Source of the DNA: a virus
DNA length: 64,000 nucleotides
UHGV virus genome: UHGV-1370141
Direction: 5' to 3' (one strand)
The number at the start of each line of letters is the position of its first letter. Within the stretch, counting starts at the first letter, position 1. The position numbers were made by a program, and so were the translations under genes. The notes below the pieces were generated by a model, which searched no databases, was not told the DNA's origin, and was given only the letters and a program-made list of their open reading frames with translations. Positions 6,392 through 47,918 of the stretch are shown one piece after another.

Positions 6392-6602
6392 TTTAAAACT
6401 CCATTAGATTAAACAAAAAAAGAATAAAGATTAGGGGTGCTACATAAGCACCCCGTGAACTGTTAAATTTTGCAAGCCCCGCCTGAGCAGTTATCGTCTT
6501 CCGTAGTTGGGTCAGCACCCTTCTCTACGGTAGCTTCCGGGTCTAAGCCAGGGATTGCAAATTCGTCAGTTTCTTTAACGGTTTCTACTTTAACTTCTTC
6601 AG

Positions 6603-6827: not shown

Positions 6828-6997
6828 CAGACATCCCCAAAAGCCAGAAAGCGTTTACGACCCTTGTGTGGTCCTTTACGCCAGCGACTAGCGATAGTTT
6901 TACGATTTACTTTGCAACGGATTCTCTTATTCAGATTGATATACTTTATAGTAACTTTAATGACATCATTCGTCATAAAGAATTCCCTCATCATTAA

Positions 6998-14498: not shown

Positions 14499-14570
14499 AA
14501 TTCACTCCGAAAGAATGTCTCACGTAAATAATATCTGTCTGACTTCTTTTTGAAAATGAGGTGGTTTTAA

Positions 14571-18507: not shown

Positions 18508-18604
18508 CGAGCTTTACCTTTATGAGATAATCTCGGTCATAAGTTCAGGATGAACTGTAAAAAGACTTTACTATGTAACCCTGACTTATAATCCGAGGTT
18601 TTAA

Positions 18605-23094: not shown

Positions 23095-23131
23095 GGTGAC
23101 TAACTCCGAGGGTTCTACACCTGAATAATAT

Positions 23132-34286: not shown

Positions 34287-34318
34287 TTATCAGACCTTAC
34301 AGACGCAAAAAGATGAAA

Positions 34319-34447
34319 TTAAAACCAACGTCCAATGATAAAAGCGGCAGCGGCGAGAAGCAGTACGGTAATAAAACCCGCACCCCATGTTAGTTCCGCG
34401 TTATATAAAGCGCCGATTGCAGCATTGGTAGTATTGACAACAGTCAT
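34319..34447 (-). CDS. Small hydrophobic protein (about 42 aa; not in ORF track)
   Basis: Manual translation MTVVNTTNAAIGALYNAELTWGAGFITVLLLAAAAFIIGRWF with GAGGGA SD upstream; coordinates approximate. Confidence 0.3.
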   Translation of the reverse strand: MTVVNTTNAAIGALYNAELTWGAGFITVLLLAAAAFIIGRWF

Positions 34448-34605
34448 AGTTCTTCCCTCGTAAAACACCCTCCCAGTTACCCAGGAGGGGGTTCTAACTT
34501 AACTGTGCGTAGAGCCTTTGAAAGCCCATCCGTACTTATTAATCAGCCAGTTGAGAGATTTCCCAATAATCCACAACGACCCAAGTGTTAACAGAATACC
34601 CTCAA

Positions 34606-34806
34606 TCATGACTTCCCTCCAACACACCGCCACTCACATTCGCGTTGGTGCCAAATTGAACCCCAGGTGAGCCTAATCGCGTACGCTAAGACCACCCATA
34701 AAATCGCCGTTATACAAAATAGCACGTACAGAATGGCAACCAGCACCATGACGCTAAACCCTAAAACGCTTAGTAACTGACGCCACCAATCAGTTTGCGT
34801 AGACAA
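34606..34806 (-). CDS. Small membrane protein (66 aa)
   Basis: Hydrophobic core LLSVLGFSVMVLVAILYVLFCITAILWVVLAYAI; TTG start whose codon overlaps the SbcC-like gene 3' end. Confidence 0.35.
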   Translation of the reverse strand: MSTQTDWWRQLLSVLGFSVMVLVAILYVLFCITAILWVVLAYAIRLTWGSIWHQRECEWRCVGGKS

Positions 34807-37312
34807 TTTTTACTCCTTCGTTGTAAACCGCAGGCAGTGTTACGCCTTCAGGTTCAATAACACAGTATGCGGCTTCGTTAAGTTTTGAATGAATTTCTGC
34901 TTCGTGAGATACCACCAGTAACTGAGAGAACTCACCGGAATTCGCCAGGGTTTTAATAAACCCAACGAGGTTATTTCGGTGTTCTTCATCCATCCCTTCT
35001 GACGGCTCATCCAACAGTAGCGGATACTGATGAAGTTTCAGGGCTTTGTAAGCGGTTAAACGAAACATCAAATTAAAGATGGCTCGCTGCGCTTTCGACC
35101 CTTTCCGCACGTCAGGTACCGGTTCAGGATGGGTTTTTAACTGCACTGGGAACGTGTAGTCTAAGTCACCGTCGGTTAAGTCACACGGCATGACCCGCAT
35201 AGGGTAGGTCCAGACTTGTTCGATATATCGCGTCATCAATTCCGTGATTCTCACGATAGCGTTGTAGAAGTATTTGCGTAGTACCCCTTTCTCGGGCGAG
35301 AACGCTTGAATCATCAGTTTGTTATTGAATTGCTGTGCCTGTAAATCCGATAACTCCTTTTCTAACGCAGTAAGTTGGTTGAGCTCGTTTTCCATCTGAC
35401 GGTACCGTTCCCGTGCTGTGGTGAACGCATCCAACTTGTTTTCTCGGGCGTTTAATAACGTTTCGACCACCGTGTTGGTTAATGTTACCTTAACATCGTT
35501 CTCTAAACGCTCAAAAACCGCATTAAAATTGTCTACAGTGGCTTTAAGTTCGTTTAGATAACAAAAGGTATCATTAGCAACTGCGTGCTCTCTACGGCGC
35601 TCTGAGAGCGTTTCTGTCGCCTTACCCAAACGCTCCTGCTGGAAGGCAATTTTCTGCTGTAGAGCACCATCAACGTTACCTACCGCTGCAACTGCGTTTG
35701 CCCACTCTTTTTCCGCTTTAGCAAAACGGTGTTTCGTTTCGTGGTATTCAATTGCGGAATAAAGTTCACGATCGAACTCTGCACACAAACTGCCAAACTG
35801 ACTGCGGTTATCCGTAAAGACATTCCGCTCCTGGAGACGTTTAAAGAACAAACTCAATACCGGGTCTTTCGAGTATGTTAAAACGATTTCCCGCACTTGG
35901 CGCATGTAATTAACGTCCGACTCTAATTCCGTACGGTCTCGCAACACGGAATCAAGCTGAGTCTGTAACGTATTACGTTGCTCCATTTGTCCACGAATGG
36001 CTTCTTCCAATTCAGGCAAAGAACGACGCACGCCCGGACGGAATTTAAATTGACACTGCGGACAATCAACCTCTGCGGTTTCCAAATAGTGATTCCGTTC
36101 GTGGTTGAGGTTCTGCAATACGTTTTCAACGCGTTGTAGTCGGTCACGCAACCCAGATGAGTTCTGGTCTAAGGTCAACAGTTTCTCTTCCAGTACGTTC
36201 AACCGTTCCGTTGATTTAATAGCATCCAGCGTTGTTCCTAAACGTTGTCCCCAGACACGCGCATCCGTCGCTGCTTTAAGCTGGTCAATGTTAACGGTCT
36301 CCGCAAACAGTTCAGGGAAAAGATGTTCGGTGTCCCACTGCTTTAATAACTCACGCAGTTTTGCAACCGTGTTCTTTAACCCTTCGTGATTCCGCATCAG
36401 GTAATCTTGGCGGGTAGACTCGTCCATCAACAGAGACAAATCTTTGTTTAGCATAGACAGCTCTGTTTCAGCAGAGACCACCGCTTCACGGGCAGTGGCT
36501 TCAACGCGTCGTGCTTCCTCTACCTGTTCTTCCGTAGGTAATCCACCACGGTGTTCCAAGATAGCATTAATCGGTGCTTCGATTTTAAGCAATAGCGATT
36601 GAATCGTTGCCACCGTAACGTCACGATTCAGGCCCGGCAGTTGTTCAATCTGTTTGTTGAGTTCACGTAAATCTGCTTCTAATGCTTTTAACCGTGTTGC
36701 TAACTGCTGACGTTCTTCCTCGTTATCAATCACGCGGGTACGCAACTCTGCAATCTTGCGGCTGGTGATTTCAATACCGCCGTTTAACATCGTCAGGTTT
36801 TTTCGTAAACGTTGATAAAAACCTAACGCGTAAGTTAAGTCTGACGTACTTAAACGGTAGAACCACTTACGACGCAGTTCCGTTCCTGCATCCGTTAAAA
36901 GCACTTCTCCGTTCAGTAACTCTTTAATCTCTTTTGTAATGCCCGTGATTTCTTCTACACGAGAGTTATACACTTTCGCATTACCTTGTTCGACGATTTT
37001 GGTACCCGTCGTCAGGTTCTCGATATCGCAAACCAGTGAGTTGCCTTTACGTGCAACCTTAAATTTGTAACGATGGTCGTTAACCAAACAGATGTTGGTG
37101 TAAGAACCCCCGTCACGGAATTCGGATTTCGAAGGTGCGATAGGTAGAAACACGGACAGTAAGCTGGTCTTACCGCAGCCGTTACCACCGAGGATAATAG
37201 TGGTTGGGGAATGGATAGTAAAATCGAAGGTTTCGATTTCGTGTAGTCCCATCCCGGTAAACCCTTTAAGTACAATACGTTCAACTTTTAACATGTCCAC
37301 CTCCATATTCAC
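34790..37312 (-). CDS. SbcC/Rad50-like SMC-family ATPase with zinc hook
   Basis: N-terminal Walker A IILGGNGCGKTSLL; long coiled-coil middle with CPQC zinc-hook; C-terminal Walker B LLLDEPSEGMD and H-loop VVSHEAE. Confidence 0.8.
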   Translation of the reverse strand: MNMEVDMLKVERIVLKGFTGMGLHEIETFDFTIHSPTTIILGGNGCGKTSLLSVFLPIAPSKSEFRDGGSYTNICLVNDHRYKFKVARKGNSLVCDIENLTTGTKIVEQGNAKVYNSRVEEITGITKEIKELLNGEVLLTDAGTELRRKWFYRLSTSDLTYALGFYQRLRKNLTMLNGGIEITSRKIAELRTRVIDNEEERQQLATRLKALEADLRELNKQIEQLPGLNRDVTVATIQSLLLKIEAPINAILEHRGGLPTEEQVEEARRVEATAREAVVSAETELSMLNKDLSLLMDESTRQDYLMRNHEGLKNTVAKLRELLKQWDTEHLFPELFAETVNIDQLKAATDARVWGQRLGTTLDAIKSTERLNVLEEKLLTLDQNSSGLRDRLQRVENVLQNLNHERNHYLETAEVDCPQCQFKFRPGVRRSLPELEEAIRGQMEQRNTLQTQLDSVLRDRTELESDVNYMRQVREIVLTYSKDPVLSLFFKRLQERNVFTDNRSQFGSLCAEFDRELYSAIEYHETKHRFAKAEKEWANAVAAVGNVDGALQQKIAFQQERLGKATETLSERRREHAVANDTFCYLNELKATVDNFNAVFERLENDVKVTLTNTVVETLLNARENKLDAFTTARERYRQMENELNQLTALEKELSDLQAQQFNNKLMIQAFSPEKGVLRKYFYNAIVRITELMTRYIEQVWTYPMRVMPCDLTDGDLDYTFPVQLKTHPEPVPDVRKGSKAQRAIFNLMFRLTAYKALKLHQYPLLLDEPSEGMDEEHRNNLVGFIKTLANSGEFSQLLVVSHEAEIHSKLNEAAYCVIEPEGVTLPAVYNEGVKIVYAN

Positions 37313-37324
37313 GGAGCGTGGTGT

Positions 37325-37372
37325 AAAAAGAAAAAAAATAAAAGAGAAGGGAGAGAACCCGAAGGTTCTCTC
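37325..37372 (-). terminator. Rho-independent terminator (GAGAGAACC-cgaa-GGTTCTCTC; long U-run on - strand)
   Basis: Perfect 9 bp stem with a roughly 20 nt plus-strand A-run on 5' side, right after the stop of 37379..37987. Confidence 0.55.
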
Positions 37373-37378
37373 GTGGTA

Positions 37379-37987
37379 TTACGGCTGGTAGAGTTTGTAA
37401 CCCATCTCCTGCCAGTTTTGGATATTTTTCGATTGCTCAACCCAAGCCTGGCCTGCGTCGGACGCAACAACTTCCATCGTCAGTAAACAAATCAGATTGG
37501 TAACGGGAACACATTTGCCTGGTGTAACGTCATCCAAATACACCGGATACAGATAAGGTGATTTGATGCTTTGATACGGATAGGAATAATGCGTTCCTAC
37601 AACCCAACCTTCTTCCACCGGGCAGAGGTTAAAGGTACGCGTTTCTGGGATTTCCCCTTCAGAGATCCAATTTACAACGTCGGCCTTAATACGGCCGTTG
37701 TCGATGTAGTAGAACACAACACGTTGCGGGATACCTGCACCCCCGGTAGGGTCTATTGCTTCCAGCGCTTTAAACGGTGTATTATTTAGCGTAGTACGGT
37801 TATCTAACGCGTACATCAGCTTTTCGTAAGCGGTTGGCGTTTTACGTTCGAAATACGCTTTCAAACGCGGGTACGCTAAGAACCCTTCGACTTCTTCCTC
37901 CATTAAATCGATGAATAACGGAGAATGTGGATTAGCTTCGTTTAGTCGCATCGCTTCGATAAAACGAACCAAAGTAATTTCGTTCAT
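37379..37987 (-). CDS. Hypothetical protein (202 aa)
   Basis: ORF directly upstream of the SbcC-like gene; no metallophosphoesterase motifs seen, so not an SbcD/Mre11 homologue by eye. Confidence 0.4.
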   Translation of the reverse strand: MNEITLVRFIEAMRLNEANPHSPLFIDLMEEEVEGFLAYPRLKAYFERKTPTAYEKLMYALDNRTTLNNTPFKALEAIDPTGGAGIPQRVVFYYIDNGRIKADVVNWISEGEIPETRTFNLCPVEEGWVVGTHYSYPYQSIKSPYLYPVYLDDVTPGKCVPVTNLICLLTMEVVASDAGQAWVEQSKNIQNWQEMGYKLYQP

Positions 37988-38004
37988 GTTTCAGTTTCCT
38001 TTGG

Positions 38005-38033
38005 CAAAAAAGAAGCCCCGTACACAGCGGGGC
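38005..38033 (-). terminator. Terminator-like hairpin (GCCCCG...CGGGGC; U-run on - strand)
   Basis: GC stem with plus-strand A-run on 5' side, after the stop of 38042..38518. Confidence 0.4.
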
Positions 38034-38041
38034 CGGGCTAA

Positions 38042-38518
38042 TCACAGCCCTAAGTGCGTGAGTGATAAGATAGGCTGTGAGACACCCTGGATAGTAGCGT
38101 GGGAACGATACATTTCGGCGTTGGTTGAGAATACCTCGTTAGCGATAATGCATTCACCCGTCTCTAAAGATAGGAGATAAATGTAATCGCTCCATACGCT
38201 TTGTACCAAGACCCACTCTAAGGATGGACCACAGTCTGATGTTGCTTGCAAATAGTGGAAATAAGGACGTATCGCATCCACCGCCGCATTAAAGCGACGA
38301 TGATAAATTCGAGTTAAGTCAAACGACCAAATTGTTTCCAGGTCAATAGGGCGTAAAGTACGCACGGTTTTGATAATAGTTTCCTGGTCGTTGTGTCGTG
38401 CAGCATCAGCAATCAATAGCAGTTTCCAAGCTACCGTTAAGTTGTGGCGAATATACTCAGGCTTAGCCGTCAGTTCGTGATGGAATTGGGCTGCTTGATA
38501 AACATTAGATAAACGCAT
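38042..38518 (-). CDS. Hypothetical protein (158 aa)
   Basis: ORF in - block. Confidence 0.4.
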   Translation of the reverse strand: MRLSNVYQAAQFHHELTAKPEYIRHNLTVAWKLLLIADAARHNDQETIIKTVRTLRPIDLETIWSFDLTRIYHRRFNAAVDAIRPYFHYLQATSDCGPSLEWVLVQSVWSDYIYLLSLETGECIIANEVFSTNAEMYRSHATIQGVSQPILSLTHLGL

Positions 38519-38596
38519 TTTAATTCTCCTTTAGGTAAAACAAGTCGTAAAAAGGACCCCGGACGAATCGGAACGTACCGGGGCCAAGACTACACA

Positions 38597-38986
38597 TCAG
38601 TAATCTAATTCGATAGCACCTAACATCTCACCGCGTTCTTCGATGACGATAAGATGGCGGTCACGTGATTTGCTTTTCGCAAGCGTTAGTACAACTGTGG
38701 GGTCACACGTTTTGGTCGTTACAGGAAGCACCTCTTTTGCTACAGAGTCGAGTACGAAATAATAACCCGCAGGGCAGGTTGTCCCACCATCTGCTTTTAC
38801 GAGTATATAGCGTCCATCTGCGCCAACTTCTTGGCACTCGCCTGCATCGCCTTCGCAGACTTCAAAACCCGGTGGGTTGTAGTGATAGTCTGTGTTCGTT
38901 GCCGGGGTAAGTAATAAATCGTCGATGTGTGTAGAAGCCATAACTCCGATTGAGAAAAACGCCAACAAAGCGCAGATAAGACGCAT
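38597..38986 (-). CDS. Small secreted protein 1 of 5 (129 aa)
   Basis: N-terminal signal-peptide-like MRLICALLAFFSIGVMAS; several Cys in mature part. Confidence 0.45.
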   Translation of the reverse strand: MRLICALLAFFSIGVMASTHIDDLLLTPATNTDYHYNPPGFEVCEGDAGECQEVGADGRYILVKADGGTTCPAGYYFVLDSVAKEVLPVTTKTCDPTVVLTLAKSKSRDRHLIVIEERGEMLGAIELDY

Positions 38987-38996
38987 GGTTTACTCC

Positions 38997-39407
38997 TTAG
39001 ATTTTAAGTTTGTCCTGTGCTACAACGATTGGTGCTCCAGAGGTGTCGATAACACCTACAGTCGGCACACCATTTTTGATTTTGAAGAACGGTTTGTTTT
39101 CGCCTGAACACAATTGGTTGTCTTTGTATTCGATTTTCTGTGCTTTCCAAGTTTCCAGGTTGAGTACCGACATAGGGCTGTCGTAGCACCAGGCACCACC
39201 TTGCTCAACAACGAAAACATATCTGTTACCTTTGTATTCAAACAAATTCTTTGTCTGGCAATACAGACCGTCAATTTCTGTGCAGTAGAATTCATCGGTA
39301 CTGTTGACGTATTTGATACCCGCCGGTAGCTTTATTGTTTTTGCTGCTACGTTAAGAGAGAACAGAACAGTTACAGCAACGAGTAAAGTTTTGATAAACG
39401 TTTTCAT
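38997..39407 (-). CDS. Small secreted protein 2 of 5 (136 aa)
   Basis: Signal-peptide-like MKTFIKTLLVAVTVLFSLNVAA. Confidence 0.45.
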   Translation of the reverse strand: MKTFIKTLLVAVTVLFSLNVAAKTIKLPAGIKYVNSTDEFYCTEIDGLYCQTKNLFEYKGNRYVFVVEQGGAWCYDSPMSVLNLETWKAQKIEYKDNQLCSGENKPFFKIKNGVPTVGVIDTSGAPIVVAQDKLKI

Positions 39408-39422
39408 GACAGACTCCTTAAA

Positions 39423-39905
39423 TTAATTAACCGTAGCTACGTATTTCTTAACCAGATAGGCGAATTCATTAACGCCGATATCGCCAAACCAAACCAGGTA
39501 ACCTGGGTCGACGTTGTAATAGTAACCTACCACGACATGGGTCTGCGGGTTATAAAGCGTCGTGATGTATTCCCAACCACAAGCATTGCTTTTGCAAGCG
39601 GTAGATTCAAGCCAGATTTTGCCGTTGATTTGCACGGGAATAACATCGCCGCCAGGACCATCCATCACGCCATCTTTACCGAATAACCCGTCTAGTCCGA
39701 CAGGTTTCAACGCTTTATCGATTGCGGCTTTATAAGTCGCATCGTCGGTATAGAGTGTGTTGATATCAGGACATGCACTGGGTTGTTCAGCCCAGGCTTC
39801 CGGGTTACAACTAAGTGCTTGTTTTACACTAGCCGCTTCTGCGTTAAAGGTAAAGCCCGTGAACAGAACCGCCACGAAGAACATCAGGGTATGTAAACGT
39901 TTCAT
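39423..39905 (-). CDS. Small secreted protein 3 of 5 (160 aa)
   Basis: Signal-peptide-like MKRLHTLMFFVAVLFTGFTFNAEA. Confidence 0.45.
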   Translation of the reverse strand: MKRLHTLMFFVAVLFTGFTFNAEAASVKQALSCNPEAWAEQPSACPDINTLYTDDATYKAAIDKALKPVGLDGLFGKDGVMDGPGGDVIPVQINGKIWLESTACKSNACGWEYITTLYNPQTHVVVGYYYNVDPGYLVWFGDIGVNEFAYLVKKYVATVN

Positions 39906-39923
39906 TGTAAATTCTCCATTAAA

Positions 39924-40316
39924 TTATTCAGCGCTACGATTTAAAGTAATACGACCGATCAGTTCTGCATTATGGAAGAAGTCCACAGCAGTATAGTTAC
40001 CGACCTCTAACGGATGAATACTGACTGACATGACTTTTGGTTGTTCGCAGGCGATATCCGTCAGACGTTGGTAGACTTGTGCACGAGTGTCAGCAATGAG
40101 TAATCCGGTACACGATTCACCACGCACTAAACGATAAACTTGCAGTTTACCGAAACTGCGCATTAACGTAGGCGACTCATCCGGGTTGATAATGGGTGAA
40201 TCAGGAGCCGGTTCGTAATGGCGGACGTCCGAATCGCCGAAAGCATAAGTGGCCGTAATACCGACTGCACAGAAAATAATGATGGTATAAAGTATAGTTC
40301 TGATATTCATTTTCAC
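39924..40316 (-). CDS. Small secreted protein 4 of 5 (130 aa)
   Basis: Signal-peptide-like MKMNIRTILYTIIIFCAVGITATYA. Confidence 0.45.
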   Translation of the reverse strand: MKMNIRTILYTIIIFCAVGITATYAFGDSDVRHYEPAPDSPIINPDESPTLMRSFGKLQVYRLVRGESCTGLLIADTRAQVYQRLTDIACEQPKVMSVSIHPLEVGNYTAVDFFHNAELIGRITLNRSAE

Positions 40317-40338
40317 GCACTCTAAAAAAGATTAATAC

Positions 40339-40800
40339 TTATTTGTTAGGACGGGTGTGTCCACAGTTCTGGAAGAAAGTTTCAGACAGACGTTCGCCTT
40401 CTACGGTAAAGTTAGCGGCTTCGTTTCCGTTGATATTCACACTGAAAGTTTTGGCATTGCCGATAGCATTAACGAAAGCCACCCAAGCGAGTTCTGCTTT
40501 GTCACTACCATCCACCGTAGGGATGTTGTAAGTTTTGCCATTTACGACAATATCCAGCGTGTTGTCTTCAGCGTTAGTTGCACCTACAGGTTCCCCGTAA
40601 TACCAAACCATGCGACCGTAAAATTTGCGATTCGCGGTTTCAGTGTCACAGTTGATAGACAGTCCGTTTCCGGTGGTGTCTTCGATTTCGTAAACAGCTT
40701 GACCTGGGTTCTGTAGTTGTTCCCAACTATTGATTGCAGCGTGTGCAGTATTGAATCCGATTGCGAAAAGGCCGATTAAAAAGGAAGTGAAGATTTTCAT
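40339..40800 (-). CDS. Small secreted protein 5 of 5 (153 aa)
   Basis: Signal-peptide-like MKIFTSFLIGLFAIGFNTAHA. Confidence 0.45.
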   Translation of the reverse strand: MKIFTSFLIGLFAIGFNTAHAAINSWEQLQNPGQAVYEIEDTTGNGLSINCDTETANRKFYGRMVWYYGEPVGATNAEDNTLDIVVNGKTYNIPTVDGSDKAELAWVAFVNAIGNAKTFSVNINGNEAANFTVEGERLSETFFQNCGHTRPNK

Positions 40801-40892
40801 TGTTTTGCTCCTCGTGGGGTTAACAAGTAAAAGAGTTAATCTTAACTCTCACCTAAGTAATATATATCTGAGATTATTTTTAATGTTAGATA

Positions 40893-40926
40893 ACAAAAAA
40901 TAAAAGGTGGGGTTTACACCCCACCG
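40893..40926 (-). terminator. Rho-independent terminator (GGTGGGGT-ttac-ACCCCACC; U-run on - strand)
   Basis: Perfect 8 bp stem with plus-strand A-run on 5' side, right after the stop of 40930..41508. Confidence 0.5.
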
Positions 40927-40929
40927 TTG

Positions 40930-41508
40930 TTAAACGTCGAATCGATACTGACGAGAATTGATTAAGAATTCTGTATTCAGTTCAATCCATTCGAGCAGGT
41001 CACCCAGTTGTAAACGACTTGGGTTTTCTAACTCGATAGTGGCAACCGGATAAGAGTTTACTAATTCCGTAATTGCCTCAATACCTTCTTGCGTTCCATC
41101 GTCTTCTAAGGTAATTATAAACGGCATATCGGTACGCTCTGCGTTCGGGTTATACAGACTGACTTTCGTTGCCTGTACAAACGCCGAGTAATCGTCACGC
41201 ATGATTCTAATGTCAGGCGCTAACGTTACCCAGAGGTGTTGTCCCGGTTGGAGTTTACGTTTTGCGTAGTTTAAGAACGGATTAGCCGGTAAGTTTTCCA
41301 AACCACTGCAAATGTTCCGTAAATGAATTCCTCGCGGGTCTTTATAGTCCACAGTGAAAATTCCTACCGGTTCACGGTCTGCCTGTTTTACCAGAAAGGC
41401 CAATACCGTGTCCGCTCTCTCTGGTAAGGAAAGCTCTATTCCCTCAAGCTCCCCGTCGACGAGGTTTTCCAACCAAACGTCTTTTCTCATTTCTATTAAT
41501 CGGTACAC
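40930..41508 (-). CDS. Hypothetical protein (192 aa)
   Basis: ORF in - block. Confidence 0.4.
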   Translation of the reverse strand: MYRLIEMRKDVWLENLVDGELEGIELSLPERADTVLAFLVKQADREPVGIFTVDYKDPRGIHLRNICSGLENLPANPFLNYAKRKLQPGQHLWVTLAPDIRIMRDDYSAFVQATKVSLYNPNAERTDMPFIITLEDDGTQEGIEAITELVNSYPVATIELENPSRLQLGDLLEWIELNTEFLINSRQYRFDV

Positions 41509-41520
41509 GGTACCACCTCT

Positions 41521-42294
41521 TTAGTTATTGAGATTTACATCTGCGATAAACAACAATTGTTTGCCGTGTTGCTGTACTTCTTTCCAACCTAATTTCATAG
41601 CAGTATCAACAACATCAACCATGCTGTAACGGGACATCAAAGATTCTGATTTTGTTCCTGACATTAAGTAAAGTGGCTCATTAGGGCTACGGTCACGTGC
41701 GTCAGGAAGTTCACGTACGACTGCCGAGCCTTCGGGTACGGTAACAAGATGAATCACGGTAAATGGCCTCTTGTGCGTTAAATAGATACGAAATCCAACG
41801 TGTTCAGATTCATGAAAGATTTTCCTCACAACCACATCTTTCAGTGTTGTTTGAACATCAGCCCCAGGCAATATCATGGATTCGCGTGAAACGAAACAAC
41901 GACTATTTTCAATTGTGGAGAAATAATTACGTAGCGGTAAACTGGCGTTATTATCGCGCAGTCTTTTGCTTAAACGGTCGTAATCCATTTCTTTAACTTC
42001 TTCTAACCATGCGTAGGCACGTTCAACGTAGTACAGACCAACAGCGCGATAAGTTAATACTTTGCCTGTGGCCACTTGCCAGAGCTTAACGGTTAGCGTA
42101 TCAGGTTTATATCGCCGATATTCTCCGCGTGTATAAGTGATACGTTGATAAAGACCCACGTCTTCTGTTGGCGCGGATTCGACCGATTGTAATTGCAGCG
42201 TTCGATGAAATCTATCGTCTAGCAACAATGAAGCCAGCGAACCTTTAACCATATACGGTTCAGATTTAAAGAGGTCGTCTAAATGAATTTTCAT
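41521..42294 (-). CDS. Member 1 of a four-gene paralogue family with conserved C-terminal module (GWKEV...GKQLLFIADV)
   Basis: 257-aa ORF; the C-terminal roughly 30 aa is shared with the three neighbouring genes. Confidence 0.5.
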   Translation of the reverse strand: MKIHLDDLFKSEPYMVKGSLASLLLDDRFHRTLQLQSVESAPTEDVGLYQRITYTRGEYRRYKPDTLTVKLWQVATGKVLTYRAVGLYYVERAYAWLEEVKEMDYDRLSKRLRDNNASLPLRNYFSTIENSRCFVSRESMILPGADVQTTLKDVVVRKIFHESEHVGFRIYLTHKRPFTVIHLVTVPEGSAVVRELPDARDRSPNEPLYLMSGTKSESLMSRYSMVDVVDTAMKLGWKEVQQHGKQLLFIADVNLNN

Positions 42295-42361
42295 TTCTAT
42301 TTCCTTCTTAACAAAAGCCGCGACTAAAGCGCGGCAGTTAGAGAAAGTGTATTTTCACTTA

Positions 42362-43513
42362 TTAAAGGTCAGCAACAAACAGCAGCTGATTGCCGTACGG
42401 TTCGACAGATTTCCAACCGTAATCTTTACCGATCGTCGTTAGATGACCGGTATTTAACTTTTTGTCAACCATTCGCAGACGCATCATTAGCGTATTGGAT
42501 TCTGCCGCATCGAGTAATAACGCAGGTTCTTTTTCAGTGCGGTCATCTGCTTTCGGGAAGAAACTGTAATATTGACTTTTGGGCAGATCGATTGACAACG
42601 TATAATTTTTCTTTGTAACGAATAACGCCATCCCTTCGAAATTGCAATCGAAGCGATATTCCCAACCCGCTTCTGCTAAAACGTCCTTTAGCATCTCCAT
42701 GACTTTAAGCTGGTTAACGCTAGGCAGTCGGTAGATTGCAAGACCACTTGGGAAAATGCGTATACCGTCGACGACACTATCGGTGGTTTCGTCAATAAGT
42801 TCAGGATAGCGTTGTGAGAAAATGTGATCGCTCTTGCTTTTCTCTTCGACGTCACGAATGAATTGGGCTAATTCGTCTTTTAAGGCAGACATTTGATTTT
42901 CTCCTTTGTCTTCAATAATCAGGTGGGGTTCGCCGCTAACTAAAATGTGGTAAACAATGTCGTCGGTAGAACGGTAAGTGAGCTTGATAGCTTTATCACT
43001 TAACATTTCGTAGCGGAAGAAGCTTTCGTACCAGCTTGAGCCGAAATCGTTTTGTGTGAGTTCCTGCTCAACTTTGATGGTTTTTGCTTCAAAGCCAATT
43101 AACCCGCTTAATAACGCGAGTTCTGGTTTAGTTAAAATAGCTGCGCCGTGAAAGGACACTTGTTCAAGCTGAAAACATAAATTACTGACTTTACCACTTG
43201 GGAAGACTTTAAACATAATCTTCCGGTTGCTACTCTTTTCTCTAACAACGAGTTTACGGTAATTTAGTCCAGAATTTGTGTAAGCCGTGAACTGGTAACC
43301 TTCAATTTCTTCGTCGTAAGTACAGACATCGACAGGCGCGATAATCTCATCGTATTCACTCAGTACACAGCAGCCCAAGTTATAACCAAACAACTCGCGT
43401 TGTAATGAAGACTCGATGGTTAAGCTTGGCAGTGGCCATGTCCGATTATAGCATCTGTCCATCAGTTCTTTTAGGATCTTGACATGCCCTGGTTTAGAAA
43501 TAATATTTCGCAT
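42362..43513 (-). CDS. Member 2 of the paralogue family (C-terminus GWKSVEPYGNQLLFVADL)
   Basis: 383-aa ORF; shared C-terminal module. Confidence 0.5.
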   Translation of the reverse strand: MRNIISKPGHVKILKELMDRCYNRTWPLPSLTIESSLQRELFGYNLGCCVLSEYDEIIAPVDVCTYDEEIEGYQFTAYTNSGLNYRKLVVREKSSNRKIMFKVFPSGKVSNLCFQLEQVSFHGAAILTKPELALLSGLIGFEAKTIKVEQELTQNDFGSSWYESFFRYEMLSDKAIKLTYRSTDDIVYHILVSGEPHLIIEDKGENQMSALKDELAQFIRDVEEKSKSDHIFSQRYPELIDETTDSVVDGIRIFPSGLAIYRLPSVNQLKVMEMLKDVLAEAGWEYRFDCNFEGMALFVTKKNYTLSIDLPKSQYYSFFPKADDRTEKEPALLLDAAESNTLMMRLRMVDKKLNTGHLTTIGKDYGWKSVEPYGNQLLFVADL

Positions 43514-43541
43514 TTTTACTCTCCTTTAGGGTTTTCGTTAC

Positions 43542-44081
43542 TTAAACATCAAAAGCTAAGAACAACAGTTGCTGACCGAGTTTGCGCACAGTATGCCAGC
43601 CGTGCGCTTTTGCTGTTTCTACTAACGTTTCCCAATCGTCAACGTTACAACCGTCTTTTTTCAGTTTTGTAAGTAGTGTCTCTGCTTCTTTATCTGTCAA
43701 CAATAATCCTGGGTTACTTAACGTAGACGTAAGTGGGTTAGGGAAATATGCGTAGCGTCTTGCGAAAGTAAAGTTCACGAGATAACGTGCTTTCCCCGTG
43801 TCTAGAAGCGTAACAACATCCACGCCGCCGTCGTAGGACGCGCTCGTCACTTTCCATCCTGTACCGGAAAACAGTTGACTGAATAATTTGGTAAAGATAT
43901 CCCCGGAACCGCGATGATAAAGCACAGCATCTTCGTTGATTTTTTCTATTTCAATACCAGTGATCGTTGTACCCGGTTGAATAACGTTAGACAATATACT
44001 GTACGGGCTTTCAAAACGATGTTTACCCACACCCAGGTTAACAAACTTAATAGCTTGTTGTTTCATTTCGATACTAACCAT
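43542..44081 (-). CDS. Member 3 of the paralogue family (C-terminus GWHTVRKLGQQLLFLAFDV)
   Basis: 179-aa ORF; shared C-terminal module. Confidence 0.5.
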   Translation of the reverse strand: MVSIEMKQQAIKFVNLGVGKHRFESPYSILSNVIQPGTTITGIEIEKINEDAVLYHRGSGDIFTKLFSQLFSGTGWKVTSASYDGGVDVVTLLDTGKARYLVNFTFARRYAYFPNPLTSTLSNPGLLLTDKEAETLLTKLKKDGCNVDDWETLVETAKAHGWHTVRKLGQQLLFLAFDV

Positions 44082-44108
44082 GATATTTTCTCCTTTAGGT
44101 TTTTTTAC

Positions 44109-44846
44109 TTACGCGGTTTTAATTAACAGCAGATAGTCCTTCGTAATCTCAGCACAACCCCACCCTCTCATCGCGGCGATTTTACGAAGATCAATTTTCT
44201 CGTGATATTTCAATAAGGGATCGTCCGGGTTAATTTCAACCAGGTGTGTGGCTTTAGAAATCGTTTCCACATCTGGTATTTGTTTTGCTAAGTCCGATGC
44301 AATTAGTTCAATAACGCGGTATCCGTTTAACACAGAAACATAAATGCGTAAACCATATAGCGTGCCCTCGTCTTCTAATGGACAAAGATCGATGCCGGGT
44401 CCAAGCAGTGATAACTCGACGTTATCGGGAAGGTTTTCTGCATTTCGGAGTAACCCTATCCCATTTCTAAACAGAGGGAAGTAAGAGAATAGTGGTGGTA
44501 AAGCCCAACCATTCCCAATAAGCACATCAGCGATACTCGTAGGTGTGTTCGCAAGAAGACGAATGTGGTCAGCCACAACTTCAAGTTCGGCATCACTGAT
44601 CAACTTATAGATTAACATGACACTGGTTTCGGTATTAATAACAAAGAAGACGCGGTTGGCGTAACTGCCTATCACGTATTCGTCAATCATACAGTCGATA
44701 ACGTCACTGTCTGGATAATCTTCAGGTTTAATTGTTCCAGCATCGATTAACTTAGCAGGTTGCGATTGTTTTAATAGTTCTTTAACCACCGTAGAAGAAA
44801 GTTCTAAACTGGTGTTGGTAAAGATATCGTCTAACAATTCTCTCAT
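44109..44846 (-). CDS. Member 4 (divergent) of the paralogue family (C-terminus GWGCAEITKDYLLLIKTA)
   Basis: Start set to internal Met (MRELLDD) preceded by AGGAGA SD; weaker match to the C-terminal module. Confidence 0.45.
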   Translation of the reverse strand: MRELLDDIFTNTSLELSSTVVKELLKQSQPAKLIDAGTIKPEDYPDSDVIDCMIDEYVIGSYANRVFFVINTETSVMLIYKLISDAELEVVADHIRLLANTPTSIADVLIGNGWALPPLFSYFPLFRNGIGLLRNAENLPDNVELSLLGPGIDLCPLEDEGTLYGLRIYVSVLNGYRVIELIASDLAKQIPDVETISKATHLVEINPDDPLLKYHEKIDLRKIAAMRGWGCAEITKDYLLLIKTA

Positions 44847-45231
44847 GGGGTTTATTCTCCTAAAAAGGGATAAGGAAGTCACTACGTTCCTCTGGGAAGA
44901 GTATGTCGGTATACTACGTATACCTCCGCTATTTATATCCGTATACATAATGCCCCCTACCCCCTACCGGTATCCCGAGTAGCAGAATAAAGGGACAATC
45001 TGTAAATTTTAAGTAATACTATGATTACCGTGGTAGATAAGGTGAATAGTGACGGAAGAGTCTCACTACCTCTTCGATACCGTCTTTCTGTTCAGCGAAC
45101 ATGGTAGCCTCCACTATTGTTAGTATCCGTTTCGAAAAGAAACGTGCCCATAGGGGTTGAAGTGCGAGTTCAACCCCTATTCACTTAAGTAAAATATATC
45201 TGAATCTATTTCCGATCTAAGGAACGACCTA

Positions 45232-46197
45232 ATGGAGAAATCCAGCGTTGATTTTTTCTCAATTGGTATCGTCGCGGAAGACAAACCCCGTGGTACAGAT
45301 CGGGTAAAAGTGATACCAATTGAAACCAACTTTGCGAACCCTACCGTTGTACAATCGGTTTCCTCAACCGCTGAAAAGGTACACGATACTGGGGGTGCTA
45401 CTGACAACCTAACGATTAAAACAGGTAACACGATTACCGCAAAGTGGTGGAAGTTTAATTCCAACCGAATTAATTCCCCAGACGTTAAGCGAGAAGATTA
45501 CGTTATCTTGCTACGTCTAGGGCAAACCGATATTTATTTTTGGATTGATCTGAATTTTGCTAACGTTAAGCGATTAGAAGATGCGGTTTACGCGTGGTCT
45601 GCTGACCCTGAAAACCAGATGGCGGATGACTTGTCGAATGCGTATGTGTTAAACGTCTCAACGATTGACAAACACGTTACCCTAAGAACAAGTATGGTGA
45701 ACGGGGAGAAAGCGGCGTGGTTATTCCAATTCGATAACGCTAACGGGTCGTGGCAGTGCGTTGACCATAAAGGGAATAAGTATTACATTAACTCGGTGGA
45801 AGACGATTTAGGTTTTGAGAACGCGATGCTTTCGAAAGTGAACATCAACAAAGAAGATGCATTCATTTACGCAAAACGTTCGATTAACCTGGAAACGAAA
45901 ACGATTAATGAGAAATGCGAAGTTCGGAATACCGAAGCGTCGAAATCGGTTACCTTTAAAACAGAAACCTGGCTAACTGAAGCTTCTGGTTCAACAACGT
46001 ATAAAACGCCGAACTTCAAGCAAGAAGGTAATGAAGCGATGTTCACCGGTAATTTGGAAGTTGCTAAGAACTTCAAATACGGTGGTACGGGCGAAGGCGT
46101 GGGTATCTTTACGGTTAAGGATGCGGTTATTTCCGGTATTACCTTCAGCGTACACATCCATGACGGCGTCCATGGCCCAACTTCAGGCCCACGCTGA
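45232..46197 (+). CDS. Hypothetical protein (321 aa), possibly structural
   Basis: First + strand gene after the divergent intergenic region; T/N/K-rich beta-like composition. Confidence 0.45.
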   Translation: MEKSSVDFFSIGIVAEDKPRGTDRVKVIPIETNFANPTVVQSVSSTAEKVHDTGGATDNLTIKTGNTITAKWWKFNSNRINSPDVKREDYVILLRLGQTDIYFWIDLNFANVKRLEDAVYAWSADPENQMADDLSNAYVLNVSTIDKHVTLRTSMVNGEKAAWLFQFDNANGSWQCVDHKGNKYYINSVEDDLGFENAMLSKVNINKEDAFIYAKRSINLETKTINEKCEVRNTEASKSVTFKTETWLTEASGSTTYKTPNFKQEGNEAMFTGNLEVAKNFKYGGTGEGVGIFTVKDAVISGITFSVHIHDGVHGPTSGPR

Positions 46198-46396: not shown

Positions 46397-46606
46397 ATGG
46401 CTATTAAAGAATTCTCTTCTGCTGAACACATTCCTGAAGAGTTCAAGAAAATTGGTAACGTAAGCGCTTTCGGTGATACCGTAGACGACGTTACTGCTAA
46501 GCTGGCTGTCGAAGCTGAAAAGATCGGCGGTGAAGCGTTTAAAGTTATCGGTATTTCCGGTAACAACAAACTGCACGGTAACGCGATTGTCTACAAAAAA
46601 GACTAA
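46397..46606 (+). CDS. DUF1471 (YdgH/BhsA/McbA)-like small protein without signal peptide
   Basis: FGDTVDDVTAKLAVEAEKIGGEAFKVIGISGNNKLHGNAIVYKK resembles, from memory, the E. coli BhsA/YcfR core (...GAKSFRITSVTGPNTLHGTAVIYK); GGAGAG SD; flanked by hairpins on both sides. Confidence 0.5.
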   Translation: MAIKEFSSAEHIPEEFKKIGNVSAFGDTVDDVTAKLAVEAEKIGGEAFKVIGISGNNKLHGNAIVYKKD

Positions 46607-46608
46607 GT

Positions 46609-46666
46609 GAAAAAAAAACGTGCTACTCCTACCCTCTAAGAGGGTAGGAGGTTACTTATTTTTTTC
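46609..46666. terminator. Bidirectional rho-independent terminator (CTCCTACCCT-ctaag-AGGGTAGGAG; A-run 5', T-run 3')
   Basis: Perfect 10 bp stem between convergent genes ending at 46606 (+) and 46656 (-). Confidence 0.6.
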
Positions 46667-47918
46667 TTGCACGGAAACGATGCATTTCCAAATAGACTTT
46701 TTCCCAGGGACCGAAAGGCCCTACGATTGCCTGTGCATCGTTAATTTTCTTCTGGTTATACCAACGGGCCTCACGGAACACGTAGTTTTGACTGTCGAAT
46801 TCCGTGGTGTTAAATACCCATTCCCCTTCTTCCCACGTCGGCCAGTAACCAACGGTTTTACCGAAGCGGTTTAACAGATAACCCAGTTGTTTTTCCCCAT
46901 CAGGGTCATTAGGATCTTTAAGGTATAAACGTCCCCAGATAGCGTTGTGAGAAACCCCCACAACTTCTTCTTCCAGATACGGATTATCCACCGTAAAGAT
47001 AAACGACGACTCGTGGGTTAAAAGCGCCTTTAACGTTTCTGGGTTGCGGATACGCTGTACGCTGGTCGGGGATGACAGATCGCCAACGCCGATGCTATCC
47101 CAGTCGTAATAACGTCGGGTTTCTAGCACAGTACGCGCAACGTCAAAGTTCGGTAACGAGACCATAATGGCTTTGTCGGAGAAGTACCCAGTAACCGGTA
47201 ACCAGTGTATCAGACCCCCGATAACAAACCCCACGGTTTTACCCGTAATAGATTCCGGTAAAGAAATCATTAACGTGGAATAATAGTCACGGGTGGTGTC
47301 GAGTTTGTTTAAGGTCAAGTTAGCAATGGGGTACGTTTTAACATTCCCCAACTTACTAAAGACCATGCACCCGATATCCGGTGTCCCTGCACGACGTACT
47401 ATCTTACCCGCACCCGGTAAACGTACACCAACAGTATCCGACTGATGTGGTACCCATTGACCGTTGATGTTGTACAACACCCCGTTACGGTATTTGTCTT
47501 TCCATTTATCTTCGCAAACAATCACAACGTCGTCAGCATCGTCTATACTGAAATTTTGACTGTAGTGATAACCGGGAGGACACAGATAAGTTTCTACTGG
47601 AACATCAGCATTAATCGATTGGTAGTGTGCCCAATCAAACTCTAACGTCGGTAAACCGTCTTTCAACGCAGAGATAACCACACCGGCTTTTTCATTCAGC
47701 CAGTCTTGTAACGTATCGGTACGGTTTTGTAAGTCAGCGAGGTGATATTGGCTAATTAACGTATAGTCTTTACCAAGCGCACTCAGACCGACTTCGAAAA
47801 TATGGTAATCAGAACACAAGGTTTCTAAGGGTTGCGTGACGTCGATGGCTCCCCAGGTACGGGTCTCTCGAGAGAAGCCAAAAGCGCTGTCAGGCCGTAC
47901 TTGATAAGCAGTAGTCAC
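46656..47918 (-). CDS. Hypothetical protein (about 420 aa); start uncertain
   Basis: Listed ORF (46656..48134) would overlap the 5' end of the divergent fibre gene by about 150 nt; an in-frame GTG preceded by GAGGA gives a start at 47918. Confidence 0.4.
   Translation of the reverse strand: MTTAYQVRPDSAFGFSRETRTWGAIDVTQPLETLCSDYHIFEVGLSALGKDYTLISQYHLADLQNRTDTLQDWLNEKAGVVISALKDGLPTLEFDWAHYQSINADVPVETYLCPPGYHYSQNFSIDDADDVVIVCEDKWKDKYRNGVLYNINGQWVPHQSDTVGVRLPGAGKIVRRAGTPDIGCMVFSKLGNVKTYPIANLTLNKLDTTRDYYSTLMISLPESITGKTVGFVIGGLIHWLPVTGYFSDKAIMVSLPNFDVARTVLETRRYYDWDSIGVGDLSSPTSVQRIRNPETLKALLTHESSFIFTVDNPYLEEEVVGVSHNAIWGRLYLKDPNDPDGEKQLGYLLNRFGKTVGYWPTWEEGEWVFNTTEFDSQNYVFREARWYNQKKINDAQAIVGPFGPWEKVYLEMHRFRARKK

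What the first reader, a model, noticed from the sequence alone, without database searches (positions are those of the whole stretch)
44847..45231. Divergent intergenic control region (about 385 bp) with a strong hairpin and a small SD-preceded ORF
This is the longest non-coding gap in the window and separates the leftward paralogue array from the rightward genes. It contains a perfect 9 bp hairpin (GGGGTTGAA-gtgcgag-TTCAACCCC, about 45153-45177) with no clean T-tract on either side, a G-rich run (GGGGGTAGGGGG on the complementary strand), and a roughly 25-codon ORF with a GGAGG SD on the - strand (about 45033-45110; MFAEQKDGIEEVVRLFRHYSPYLPR). Candidates are divergent early promoters with an operator or RNA-processing hairpin, a leader peptide, or a small RNA.
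Basis: seen in the sequence. Interest (0 to 1): 0.35.

Follow-up and report, generated by a model that had tools for sequence, protein, structure and literature searches.

The report
Jumbo-phage early/late promoter junction
This gap is where a giant phage's leftward early genes and rightward tail genes begin: it holds the phage's own early promoter, an RNA hairpin of a kind that follows nearly all such promoters, and a tiny conserved gene, all inserted into an older conserved control module of unknown function.

Summary
The gap is exactly 44847-45231. The hairpin is a perfect 12-bp stem (45150-45180), the 25-codon ORF lies at 45102-45025 (-), and the G-run at 44953-44964.

The window comes from a phiKZ-like jumbo phage related to SPN3US and Erskinevirus, which encodes its own RNA polymerases. 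No sigma-70-like promoter or terminator-like site was found in the gap.

- **Early promoter and hairpin.** The right end carries, on the minus strand, the phage group's AT-rich early promoter (45203-45180). The hairpin follows it directly. In 32 of 36 distinct promoter copies in relatives a hairpin occupies this position, and these fold better on the transcribed strand. I read it as the 5' stem-loop of the early leftward mRNA.
- **Small ORF.** It is the first cistron. It is conserved as a peptide at 59% DNA identity, but deleted in 4 of 13 close relatives.
- **Conserved module.** The left 160 bp, including the G-run, is a single-copy module kept upstream of the baseplate gene in at least five genera. 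It has covarying hairpins and ends in a late-type A-rich/TATG box. Its function is unresolved.

The promoter part is ordinary for this phage group. The module and the hairpin rule appear undescribed.

The parts
44847..45231 (.). Whole intergenic region between the leftward gene 44109-44846 and the rightward baseplate gene 45232-46197
   Evidence: flanking genes
45180..45203 (-). Early (virion-RNA-polymerase type) promoter motif TCAGATATATTTTACTTAAGTGAA. It matches 21 of 24 positions of the consensus TCAGATATATATTACTTAGGTGAG. By analogy the predicted start is about 45182-45184.
   Evidence: literature PMC7598289, PMC5312081, PMC8244752
45150..45180 (-). It starts 2-4 nt after the predicted early transcription start, so I read it as a 5' stem-loop. 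It also forms on the + strand.
45129..45143 (-). Second small hairpin, GTTTC-loop-GAAAC, in the leader. It is kept in relatives that have the small ORF and in L388, which lacks the ORF.
45025..45112 (-). SD GGAGG (45112-45108) plus the 25-codon ORF MFAEQKDGIEEVVRLFRHYSPYLPR (ATG at 45102, stop ends at 45025)
45000..45023 (+). Homologue of the A-rich box + TATG late-promoter box (CTGTAAATTTTAAGTAATACTATG; TATG at 45020-45023). In other genera this box lies 15-30 nt upstream of the baseplate start codon.
   Evidence: PMC7598289, PMC12809450
44865..45024 (.). Conserved single-copy module upstream of the baseplate gene, present in at least five genera
44953..44964 (.). It is the most conserved block of the module.
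44930..44949 (.). Variable hairpin H2 (TATTTATA-tccg-TATACATA). A TATG on the minus strand lies at 44949-44946.
44899..44929 (.). Box 1 GAGTATGTCGG (TATG on the + strand at 44902-44905), covarying hairpin H1 GGTATAC-tac-GTATACC (44908-44924), and box 3 CCTCCGC (44923-44929)
44870..44891 (.). Second copy of box 1 (ATAAGGAAGTCAC) with the small hairpin AGGAA/TTCCT. On the minus strand it is followed by a U5 run just before the SD of the left gene.

Best explanation
The gap is the junction between the leftward early-gene block and the rightward late (baseplate/tail) block of a phiKZ-like jumbo phage that transcribes its genome with its own RNA polymerases. It has three layers.

1. **Early promoter and hairpin.** At the right end, on the minus strand, lies a copy of the phage group's AT-rich early promoter (45203-45180), the type that in phiKZ-like phages is read by the injected virion RNA polymerase. 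Transcription is inferred to start near 45182-45184. Such a promoter-proximal 5' stem-loop is a rule for this promoter class. I infer that it protects or marks early mRNAs, for example against 5'-end-dependent decay.

2. **Micro-gene.** The first cistron is a 25-codon accessory gene (45102-45025) with a strong SD. No terminator-like site follows it, so the transcript is inferred to run on through the module into the leftward genes.

3. **Ancient module.** The left 160 bp (44865-45024), including the G-run, is a single-copy module attached to the baseplate gene. It ends in the late-promoter box (A-rich tract + TATG) that drives the baseplate gene in other genera. In the window's lineage the promoter-hairpin-ORF cassette sits between that box and the baseplate gene.

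Shown: motif identity and orientation, the hairpin class and its strand bias, covariation, peptide conservation, and module conservation. Inferred: start sites, timing, the polymerase used, and the roles of the hairpin and the module.
For: **Phage type.**
- The baseplate protein is 57-73% identical to those of Erskinevirus, Seoulvirus (SPN3US), Machinavirus and Wellingtonvirus.
- An RNA polymerase beta fragment is encoded at 15708-16376 (phrog_3233, 2e-93).

**Promoter.**
- The only parts of the gap that match other jumbo phages by blastn are one weak match of positions 15-64, in the conserved module, to Asesino, and positions 330-366, which hit mostly unannotated (intergenic) places.
- Read on the minus strand, positions 330-366 are the consensus TCAGATATATATTACTTAGGTGAG. 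A perfect copy lies at 40848-40871(-).
- In relatives the motif nearly always lies on the strand of the downstream gene, after a terminator and about 55 nt before the ATG.
- SPN3US has six exact copies, each 69-96 nt upstream of an annotated same-strand CDS.
- This fits published descriptions: early promoters of phiKZ-related phages are extended AT-rich conserved motifs with the start about 6 nt downstream (PMC7598289, PMC5312081, PMC8244752).

**Hairpin.**
- 32 of 36 distinct promoter copies have a hairpin of -5 kcal/mol or stronger within the first 36 nt.
- Mean energy is -8.6 against -2.7 for a control segment; Wilcoxon p = 3e-7.
- The transcribed strand folds better than its complement: -9.3 against -6.4, p = 2e-5, with 62 against 21 G-U pairs.
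- In the window clade, 3 of 12 pairs show compensatory double changes while the loop is free to vary.

**ORF.**
- Window and L002 share 59% of nucleotides but 12/25 identical and 19/25 similar residues.
- Eight identical residues use different synonymous codons, and the other frames contain stops.
- The ORF is intact in 8 of 13 relatives.

**Module.**
- The alignment spans all clades.
- It is single-copy in SPN3US and in the window (nhmmer), and there is one place per record in 37 phage records.
- H1 is 97.9% paired, with 8 double-change cells; 0 of 500 shuffles reach its covariation score.

**Late box.** TATG sits 20-60 nt upstream of many SPN3US late genes. TATG is the phiKZ late-promoter consensus (PMC12809450).
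Against: - No transcription start data exist for this phage or for any close relative in the searched literature.
- The window's promoter copy differs from the consensus at 3 of 24 positions, and in AR9 a single mismatch can abolish an early promoter (PMC5312081). Against that, the same T variant occurs in a typical promoter context in a relative (L037) and in most of the 13 close relatives.
- Upstream of this copy the sequence is the baseplate leader, not the usual A/T-rich tract.
- This particular hairpin is equally stable on both strands (-18.9 against -18.1).
- Single-substitution intermediates are G-U on the plus strand in 3 cases and on the minus strand in 1. A role in the rightward baseplate leader, or at the DNA level, is therefore not excluded.
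- The ORF is absent in 4 of 13 relatives and out of frame at an A-run in 2. It has no database homologue.
- The function of the module is not established.
Confidence: 0.62

Rival explanations
1. The hairpin acts in the rightward late baseplate mRNA, on the + strand, or on both strands. It would be a leader structure that stabilises the long 5' UTR made when transcription starts at 45023 or 44905.
For: - The baseplate start codon is only 28 nt from the edge of the early promoter, so any rightward promoter must lie to the left and the hairpin must be inside the rightward leader.
- Cells paired: 98.5% on the + strand against 93.9% on the - strand.
- Two internal single-change intermediates (L384, L386) are G-U only on the + strand.
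- The stem is a perfect palindrome, and the loop occurs in both orientations among relatives.
Against: - There are only about four informative substitution events (3 against 1), which is not significant.
- The position immediately after an early promoter matches a class of 36 or more cases whose hairpins are biased towards the transcribed strand.
- Baseplate genes of other genera have short leaders without such a hairpin.
Confidence: 0.2
2. The hairpin is a transcription terminator or attenuator. It would stop leftward transcripts early, like the 5'-UTR premature terminators that give short RNAs in phiKZ, or it would separate the two gene blocks.
For: - Its TAGGGG...CCCCTA composition resembles the window's intergenic terminator hairpins.
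- A U-rich stretch (GUUUCUUUUCG) lies 6 nt downstream on the minus strand.
- phiKZ has conditional terminators in 5' UTRs (PMC10914365).
Against: - The terminator scan found no site in the gap.
- Real terminators of this phage have the U-run directly after the stem.
- The U-rich stretch is itself part of a second small hairpin.
- Hairpins at the same position behind other early promoters are short and are followed by the SD and a gene.
Confidence: 0.08
3. The hairpin works as DNA: a cruciform or operator bound by a protein, or a structural part of the promoter as in phage N4.
For: - It is a perfect palindrome, equally stable on both strands.
- Loop inversions are tolerated.
- Its position relative to the promoter motif is fixed.
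Against: - A dimeric operator would conserve sequence, whereas here the stem covaries.
- For the class as a whole, G-U pairs make the transcribed strand fold better than its complement, which DNA does not explain.
- N4 promoter hairpins lie upstream of the start and have 5-7 bp stems with 3-nt loops (own knowledge).
Confidence: 0.06
4. The conserved module (44865-45024) encodes or forms a structured minus-strand RNA. This could be a small RNA or 5'-UTR element with hairpins H2 and H1 and a U-rich tail, ending in a terminator-like structure.
For: - Conserved short boxes are separated by variable, covarying helices.
- H2 needs G-U pairs that exist only on the minus strand in the ChrisDB-like clades (-16.8 against -10.4; -18.9 against -11.2).
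- In Caitlin and Phobos, H1 is followed by UUAUUCUUUUU like the phage's terminators. In Phobos, SNU38 and L010 it is followed by an AT-rich spacer and an early promoter, the usual terminator-promoter layout.
- SPN3US, EaH2 and Kwan have no other promoter for the left gene.
Against: - RNAalifold finds no consensus fold.
- The proposed closing helix between the G-box and box 1 failed a swap test: cognate -14.2 against non-cognate -14.0 kcal/mol.
- The strand bias over all clades is weak (p = 0.09).
- H1 has only Watson-Crick pairs, which carry no strand information.
- No promoter for such an RNA was identified, and there is no Rfam match.
Confidence: 0.35
5. One reading: divergent host-type (sigma-70) early promoters with an operator hairpin and a leader peptide that controls the downstream genes by attenuation.
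For: The genes are divergent. A short ORF with a strong SD lies upstream of the left gene.
Against: - The simple sigma-70 consensus scan found no site in the gap.
- The phage encodes its own RNA polymerases, and phiKZ develops independently of host RNA polymerase (PMC5312081; PMC7598289).
- The ORF ends about 75 nt before the next hairpin (H2), and no alternative pairing or adjacent terminator overlaps it.
- The ORF is dispensable in 4 of 13 relatives.
Confidence: 0.03

Closest known systems
Early (virion RNA polymerase) promoters of phiKZ-related jumbo phages (phiKZ, AR9, phiR1-37)
   Same: Both are extended, highly conserved AT-rich motifs of about 13 nt. They are repeated in the genome, lie on the strand of the downstream early operon and usually have an A/T-rich upstream tract. 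The reported start is 6-7 nt downstream. Compare AR9 AAATATATATTAT-(6N)-G with CAGATATATATTAC-(6N)-G here.
   Different: The sequence is specific to the SPN3US-like group. I found no published start sites for it. Here the motif is almost always followed at once by a stem-loop, a feature the papers I read on phiKZ and AR9 do not mention.
5'-terminal stem-loops that stabilise bacterial mRNAs (e.g. the ompA leader)
   Same: A hairpin within a few nucleotides of the 5' end with variable sequence and a conserved stem. This is expected to hinder 5'-end-dependent decay (own knowledge).
   Different: The role is inferred, not tested. The window's stem (12 bp, about -18 kcal/mol) is much stronger than the class average. 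Early mRNAs of these phages are made inside an infection vesicle (PMC13282480), so the hairpin could instead serve export or recognition.
phiKZ late promoters (TATG overlapping the start, read by the non-virion RNA polymerase)
   Same: The baseplate gene's relatives have rTATGA 15-30 nt before the start codon. TATG is common upstream of SPN3US late genes. The window keeps TATG at 45020-45023 and at 44902-44905.
   Different: Here TATG is preceded by a conserved CGTAAAAAA box and, further upstream, by a long conserved module. phiKZ late promoters have no conserved upstream sequence. In the window the box lies 208 nt from the gene, and it is lost in 6 of 13 close relatives.
Short 5'-UTR RNAs made by conditional termination in phiKZ (Putzeys et al. 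2024, PMC10914365)
   Same: Structured elements between a phage promoter and the first long gene, giving possible short transcripts.
   Different: No terminator with an adjacent U-run is present in the window's gap, and no RNA data are available.
Phage N4 early promoters (DNA hairpins recognised by the virion RNA polymerase)
   Same: Both involve a virion-carried polymerase and promoters associated with hairpins.
   Different: In N4 the hairpin is the promoter and lies upstream of the start. Here it lies downstream of a sequence-conserved motif and shows the strand bias of an RNA structure.

Membership tests
phiKZ-type virion-RNAP early promoter | The phage encodes multisubunit RNA polymerase subunits | tested here: met
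   phrog_3233 RNA polymerase beta subunit at 15708-16376, E = 2e-93. The relative SPN3US has several annotated RNAP beta genes.
phiKZ-type virion-RNAP early promoter | An extended AT-rich motif, highly conserved and repeated in the genome | tested here: met
   The consensus has a perfect copy at 40848-40871 and a 21/24 copy at 45180-45203. SPN3US has 6 exact copies. There are 36-43 distinct copies in relatives.
phiKZ-type virion-RNAP early promoter | Lies upstream of, and on the same strand as, early operons | tested here: met
   The orientation and the roughly 55-96 nt distance to the next same-strand start codon hold in nearly all related copies inspected (with 42-46). That the downstream genes are 'early' is assumed, not shown.
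phiKZ-type virion-RNAP early promoter | A/T-rich tract upstream of the core motif | tested here: inconclusive
   Present at most copies (AAAAATAATCT). At 45204-45231 the upstream sequence is the baseplate leader and is less A/T-rich.
phiKZ-type virion-RNAP early promoter | Start 6-7 nt downstream; active early and without new protein synthesis | not testable with these tools
   This needs 5'-end mapping and a time course. No such data were found for this phage group.
Intrinsic (rho-independent) terminator | GC-rich stem followed directly by a U-run | tested here: not met
   No terminator-like site lies in 44847-45231. The nearest U-rich stretch starts 6-7 nt after the stem on the minus strand, and there is none on the plus strand.
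phiKZ-type late promoter | TATG with G as the start, upstream of a late (structural) gene | tested here: inconclusive
   TATG is present at 45020-45023 and 44902-44905 on the + strand. It is homologous to the rTATGA box of other genera. Its use as a start site is not testable here.
Leader-peptide attenuator | A short ORF overlapping alternative terminator/antiterminator structures just upstream of the regulated gene | tested here: not met
   The ORF ends at 45025 and the next hairpins lie at 44949-44908. No terminator was detected. The ORF is deleted in 4 of 13 relatives while the rest is retained.
Any Rfam RNA family | Score at or above the family's gathering threshold | tested here: not met
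   There are no matches at gathering scores in the window. Only chance-level hits appear at E <= 10 in the window, SPN3US and ChrisDB regions.
Sigma-70 promoter pair with operator | -35/-10 hexamers at 16-18 nt spacing | tested here: not met
   The scan found one site in 44400-45700. It lies inside the left gene, not in the gap, and shuffles gave 2.9.

The most novel reading that the evidence does not exclude
The 160-bp module containing the G-run could be an undescribed structured RNA, or RNA/DNA control element, conserved as a single copy in at least five genera of RNA-polymerase-encoding jumbo phages. It sits exactly at the border between the early and late gene blocks, and it might couple or insulate early leftward and late baseplate expression. 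Separately, the obligatory 5' stem-loop behind every early promoter could be a recognition, export or stability signal specific to mRNAs made by the injected polymerase.
Probability: 0.3. Interest if true: 0.6.

Novelty: new member of a known kind. Interest (0 to 1): 0.4.

Why it matters
Transcription signals of nucleus-forming jumbo phages are mapped experimentally only for phiKZ, AR9 and phiR1-37.

This analysis yields four usable results for the large SPN3US/Erskinevirus group, which infects Salmonella, Erwinia and E. coli and includes candidates for phage therapy and biocontrol:
- a working early-promoter consensus;
- evidence that early transcripts begin with a selected RNA stem-loop;
- a dispensable 25-residue micro-gene that annotation pipelines miss;
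- a deeply conserved, single-copy non-coding module next to the baseplate operon that no annotation mentions.

The hairpin rule and the module are cheap to test by 5'-end mapping, northern blots and stem mutants. They bear on how early mRNAs survive or leave the infection vesicle, and on how the early-to-late switch is organised.

Tried and rejected
- **Sigma-70 promoters and intrinsic terminators in the gap:** none found.
- **tRNA, tmRNA and Rfam:** nothing.
- **Homologues of the left gene in phage records:** none by tblastn; no Pfam or PHROG hit.
- **Homologues of the 25-aa peptide:** none.
- **My first reading of TTAAGTAAAATATATCTGA as a plus-strand promoter for the baseplate gene:** rejected, because in relatives the motif consistently lies on the strand of the gene downstream of its reverse complement.
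- **'GTAAAAA...TATG' as a general late-promoter motif:** not general. Only the baseplate site and the gp052 homologue have it.
- **Extra copies of the module in SPN3US or the window:** none (nhmmer). A scan for 'CGGAGG + hairpin' found no comparable intergenic case.
- **Consensus RNA fold of the whole module on either strand:** RNAalifold found nothing convincing.
- **Long-range helix between the G-box and box 1 on the minus strand:** it looked attractive in single sequences. It failed the swap test, with cognate pairs no better than non-cognate ones, so I dropped it.
- **Two degenerate pattern scans of IMG/VR for the module:** swamped by chance matches and gave nothing usable.
- **Literature searches for start-site data or a published promoter motif for SPN3US-like phages:** nothing found.

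Full report
**What is there.** The gap runs from 44847 to 45231, 385 bp. It lies between a leftward gene whose ATG is at 44846 and a rightward gene starting at 45232.
- It is one of two such hairpins in the 64 kb, where Markov simulations give none. It folds at -20.7 kcal/mol, z = -5.3.
- CCCCCTACCCCC is at 44953-44964.
- The 25-codon ORF runs from 45102 to 45025 on the minus strand. A GGAGG lies 5 nt upstream of its ATG.
- The other long ORF-poor stretches of the window are tiled by same-strand small ORFs, so 'longest non-coding gap' is fair.

**What genome this is.**
- DNA similarity to known phages is minimal.
- The rightward protein is a baseplate assembly protein (phrog_3216). It is 57-73% identical to those of Erwinia phages of Erskinevirus, Machinavirus and Wellingtonvirus and of Salmonella phage SPN3US.
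- The window also encodes an RNA polymerase beta fragment, an SbcC-like protein and virion proteins in SPN3US order.
- It is therefore a phiKZ-like jumbo phage with its own two RNA polymerases.
- Thirteen close relatives (93-99% baseplate identity) were recovered from IMG/VR and metagenomes.

**The promoter.**
- A blastn of the gap against phage genomes matched mainly positions 330-366. These hit mostly unannotated (intergenic) places in many jumbo phages.
- Collecting occurrences of the motif showed one layout throughout. Read as TCAGATATATATTACTTAGGTGAG, it lies on the strand of the next gene. It follows a GC-rich hairpin with a U-run and an A/T-rich spacer, and lies about 55 nt before the start codon.
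- The window has a perfect copy at 40848-40871(-) and a 21/24 copy at 45180-45203(-).
- The complete SPN3US genome has six exact copies, each 69-96 nt upstream of an annotated same-strand gene.
- The sigma-70 scan found no site in the gap.

**The hairpin.** It begins at the last base of the 24-nt promoter motif, 2-4 nt after the predicted start. This is a rule for the class, not a peculiarity of this locus.
- Among 36 distinct promoter copies with the extended consensus, 32 have a hairpin of -5 kcal/mol or stronger in the first 36 nt. In 32 of 35 the 5' arm starts within six bases of the conserved GTGA.
- Mean energy is -8.6 against -2.7 kcal/mol for a downstream control (p = 3e-7).
- Excluding the baseplate-gap copies, the transcribed strand folds better than its complement: -9.3 against -6.4, p = 2e-5, with 62 against 21 G-U pairs in the full set. 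The class is therefore selected as RNA, not as DNA.

For the window's own hairpin:
- Three of 12 pairs show compensatory double changes across 11 distinct relatives.
- The loop is free to vary and occurs in both orientations: CTCGCAC and GTGCGAG, GTACCAG and CTGGTAC.
- This copy is equally stable on both strands. The few single-change intermediates lean towards the plus strand (98.5% against 93.9% of cells paired).
- I therefore cannot exclude a second role in the rightward baseplate leader, which must contain it because the baseplate ATG is only 28 nt from the promoter.
- No U-run abuts the stem, so it is not a standard terminator.

**The small ORF.**
- Window and L002 differ at 41% of nucleotides in the ORF. 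They keep length, start and stop, 12/25 identical and 19/25 similar residues, and eight synonymous changes at identical residues. The other frames contain stops. The flanks are nearly identical.
- A third allele (L012, L386) has A7 or A5 where A6 would be in frame. All three substitutions between the two copies are nevertheless synonymous in the homologous frame.
- Four relatives have deleted the ORF.
- It is most simply a real, fast-evolving, dispensable micro-gene and the first cistron of the early transcript.
- No homologue was found in phage records. Nothing resembles an attenuator.

**The module.**
- Aligning the sequence upstream of the baseplate gene from all clades shows a conserved arrangement. 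In order:
  - box 1, AAGGAWGTCGG;
  - a hairpin, H1;
  - box 3, CCTCCGC;
  - a variable spacer, often a hairpin (H2);
  - the C-box, CCCCCTnACCCCC;
  - about 40 nt of variable sequence;
  - CGTAAAAAA;
  - 6-20 nt of variable sequence;
  - rTATGA;
  - the SD and start codon.
- It is single-copy in SPN3US and in the window, and occurs once per record in 37 phage records.
- It is absent from phiKZ/KTN4, Kc263, RAY and SXP01, where the baseplate gene abuts the SbcC gene.
- H1 covaries strongly: 97.9% paired, four pair types at one position, and 0 of 500 shuffles reach the score.
- The window's homologue spans about 44865-45024. Its TATG is at 45020-45023.
- So in this lineage the promoter-hairpin-ORF cassette lies between the old late-promoter box and the baseplate gene.
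- TATG is the phiKZ late-promoter consensus (PMC12809450) and is frequent upstream of SPN3US late genes.
- Six close relatives have lost the 45020 TATG, while all 13 have a clade-specific TATG in box 1 at 44902-44905. The rightward start is therefore uncertain.

**What the module does remains open.**
- *For a minus-strand RNA:*
  - The build is conserved boxes separated by variable helices.
  - H2 stems need G-U pairs available only on that strand in several clades.
  - U-rich tails follow H1, as in the phage's terminators.
  - In Phobos, SNU38 and L010 a terminator-then-early-promoter layout lies to its left.
- *Against:*
  - There is no consensus fold.
  - The attractive G-box:box 1 helix failed a swap test.
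  - The overall strand bias is only p = 0.09.
  - No promoter for such an RNA was found.
- A DNA-level regulatory role for the divergent promoters is equally possible.

**Comparison and verdict.**
- The right-hand part is a new member of a known kind, the virion-polymerase early promoter of phiKZ-like phages. It has an added, apparently undescribed regularity, the 5' stem-loop. None of the phiKZ or AR9 papers I read, nor the 2026 review, mention it.
The region is a control region with a functional hairpin and a probably real small ORF.
- The promoters are phage-specific rather than sigma-70, only one is early, and the hairpin is neither an operator nor a processing site unique to this locus.
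- The G-run turned out to mark the most interesting piece: a deeply conserved module of unknown function.

Noticed in passing
window 14519-14542(-), 23116-23139(-); SPN3US upstream of gp190, gp232, gp244 and neighbours: There is a second AT-rich promoter-like class, CAGATAGATATTATCT.CGTGA. It is related to the early consensus but distinct from it, and it recurs upstream of genes in SPN3US and twice in the window. It may be a different temporal class.
   Followed up: partly
window 45162-45168 and the same loop in L385, L387, L003, L396 and others: The hairpin loop occurs in both orientations among close relatives: CTCGCAC against GTGCGAG, and GTACCAG against CTGGTAC. The spacer between the inverted repeats has therefore flipped more than once.
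   Followed up: partly
L012 about 2770-2850 and L386 about 970-1050 (minus strand): The third allele of the small ORF carries an A7 or A5 run where A6 would be in frame. L386 reads AAA AAG at that point, like the slippery site of dnaX. This could be assembly error, decay or programmed slippage.
   Followed up: partly
window 18508-18604: A second divergent junction has CTGTAAAAAG flanked by TATG on both strands. Its architecture matches the baseplate late box (AACTGTAAAAAGACTTTACTATG upstream of 18605-19360). The homologous SPN3US gp052 site is similar.
   Followed up: partly
window 46606-46656: The hairpin CTCCTACCCTCT-AAG-AGGGTAGGAG has an A-run on one side and a T-run on the other. It lies between a short rightward gene and the leftward gene 46656-47918, so it is a likely bidirectional terminator.
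   Followed up: no
window 40930-44846: Four of the five leftward genes share a similar C-terminal end (...QQLLF.A...). Two of them (41521-42294, 42362-43513) match phrog_26772 at their C-terminal ends. The first gene (44109-44846) has no homologue in 50,697 phage records.
   Followed up: partly
L256 (pEa_SNUABM_4), L007 (ChrisDB), L251 (SPAsTU): just left of the C-box: Several clades have TATCCACAC, TAGTCACAC or TTTCACAC followed by AGATC next to the C-box. This resembles a DnaA box (TTATCCACA) with a GATC site. It may well be chance.
   Followed up: no
L264 (Erwinia phage RAY) 812-886: RAY lacks the module but keeps ACGTAAAAAA about 15 nt upstream of a TATG whose ATG is the annotated baseplate start codon. 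This would give a leaderless or nearly leaderless late mRNA.
   Followed up: no
window 34790-45231 compared with L262-L265: In phiKZ/KTN4, Kc263 and SXP01 the baseplate gene is divergently adjacent to the SbcC/SMC gene, with gaps of 20-64 bp; in RAY one small gene intervenes. In the SPN3US-like group about a dozen to fifteen genes, and the module, lie between them.
   Followed up: partly
window 6392-6997 and 34287-34789: These stretches carry runs of unannotatable small same-strand ORFs of 42-74 aa, several of them hydrophobic. They are probably clusters of small genes rather than non-coding DNA.
   Followed up: no
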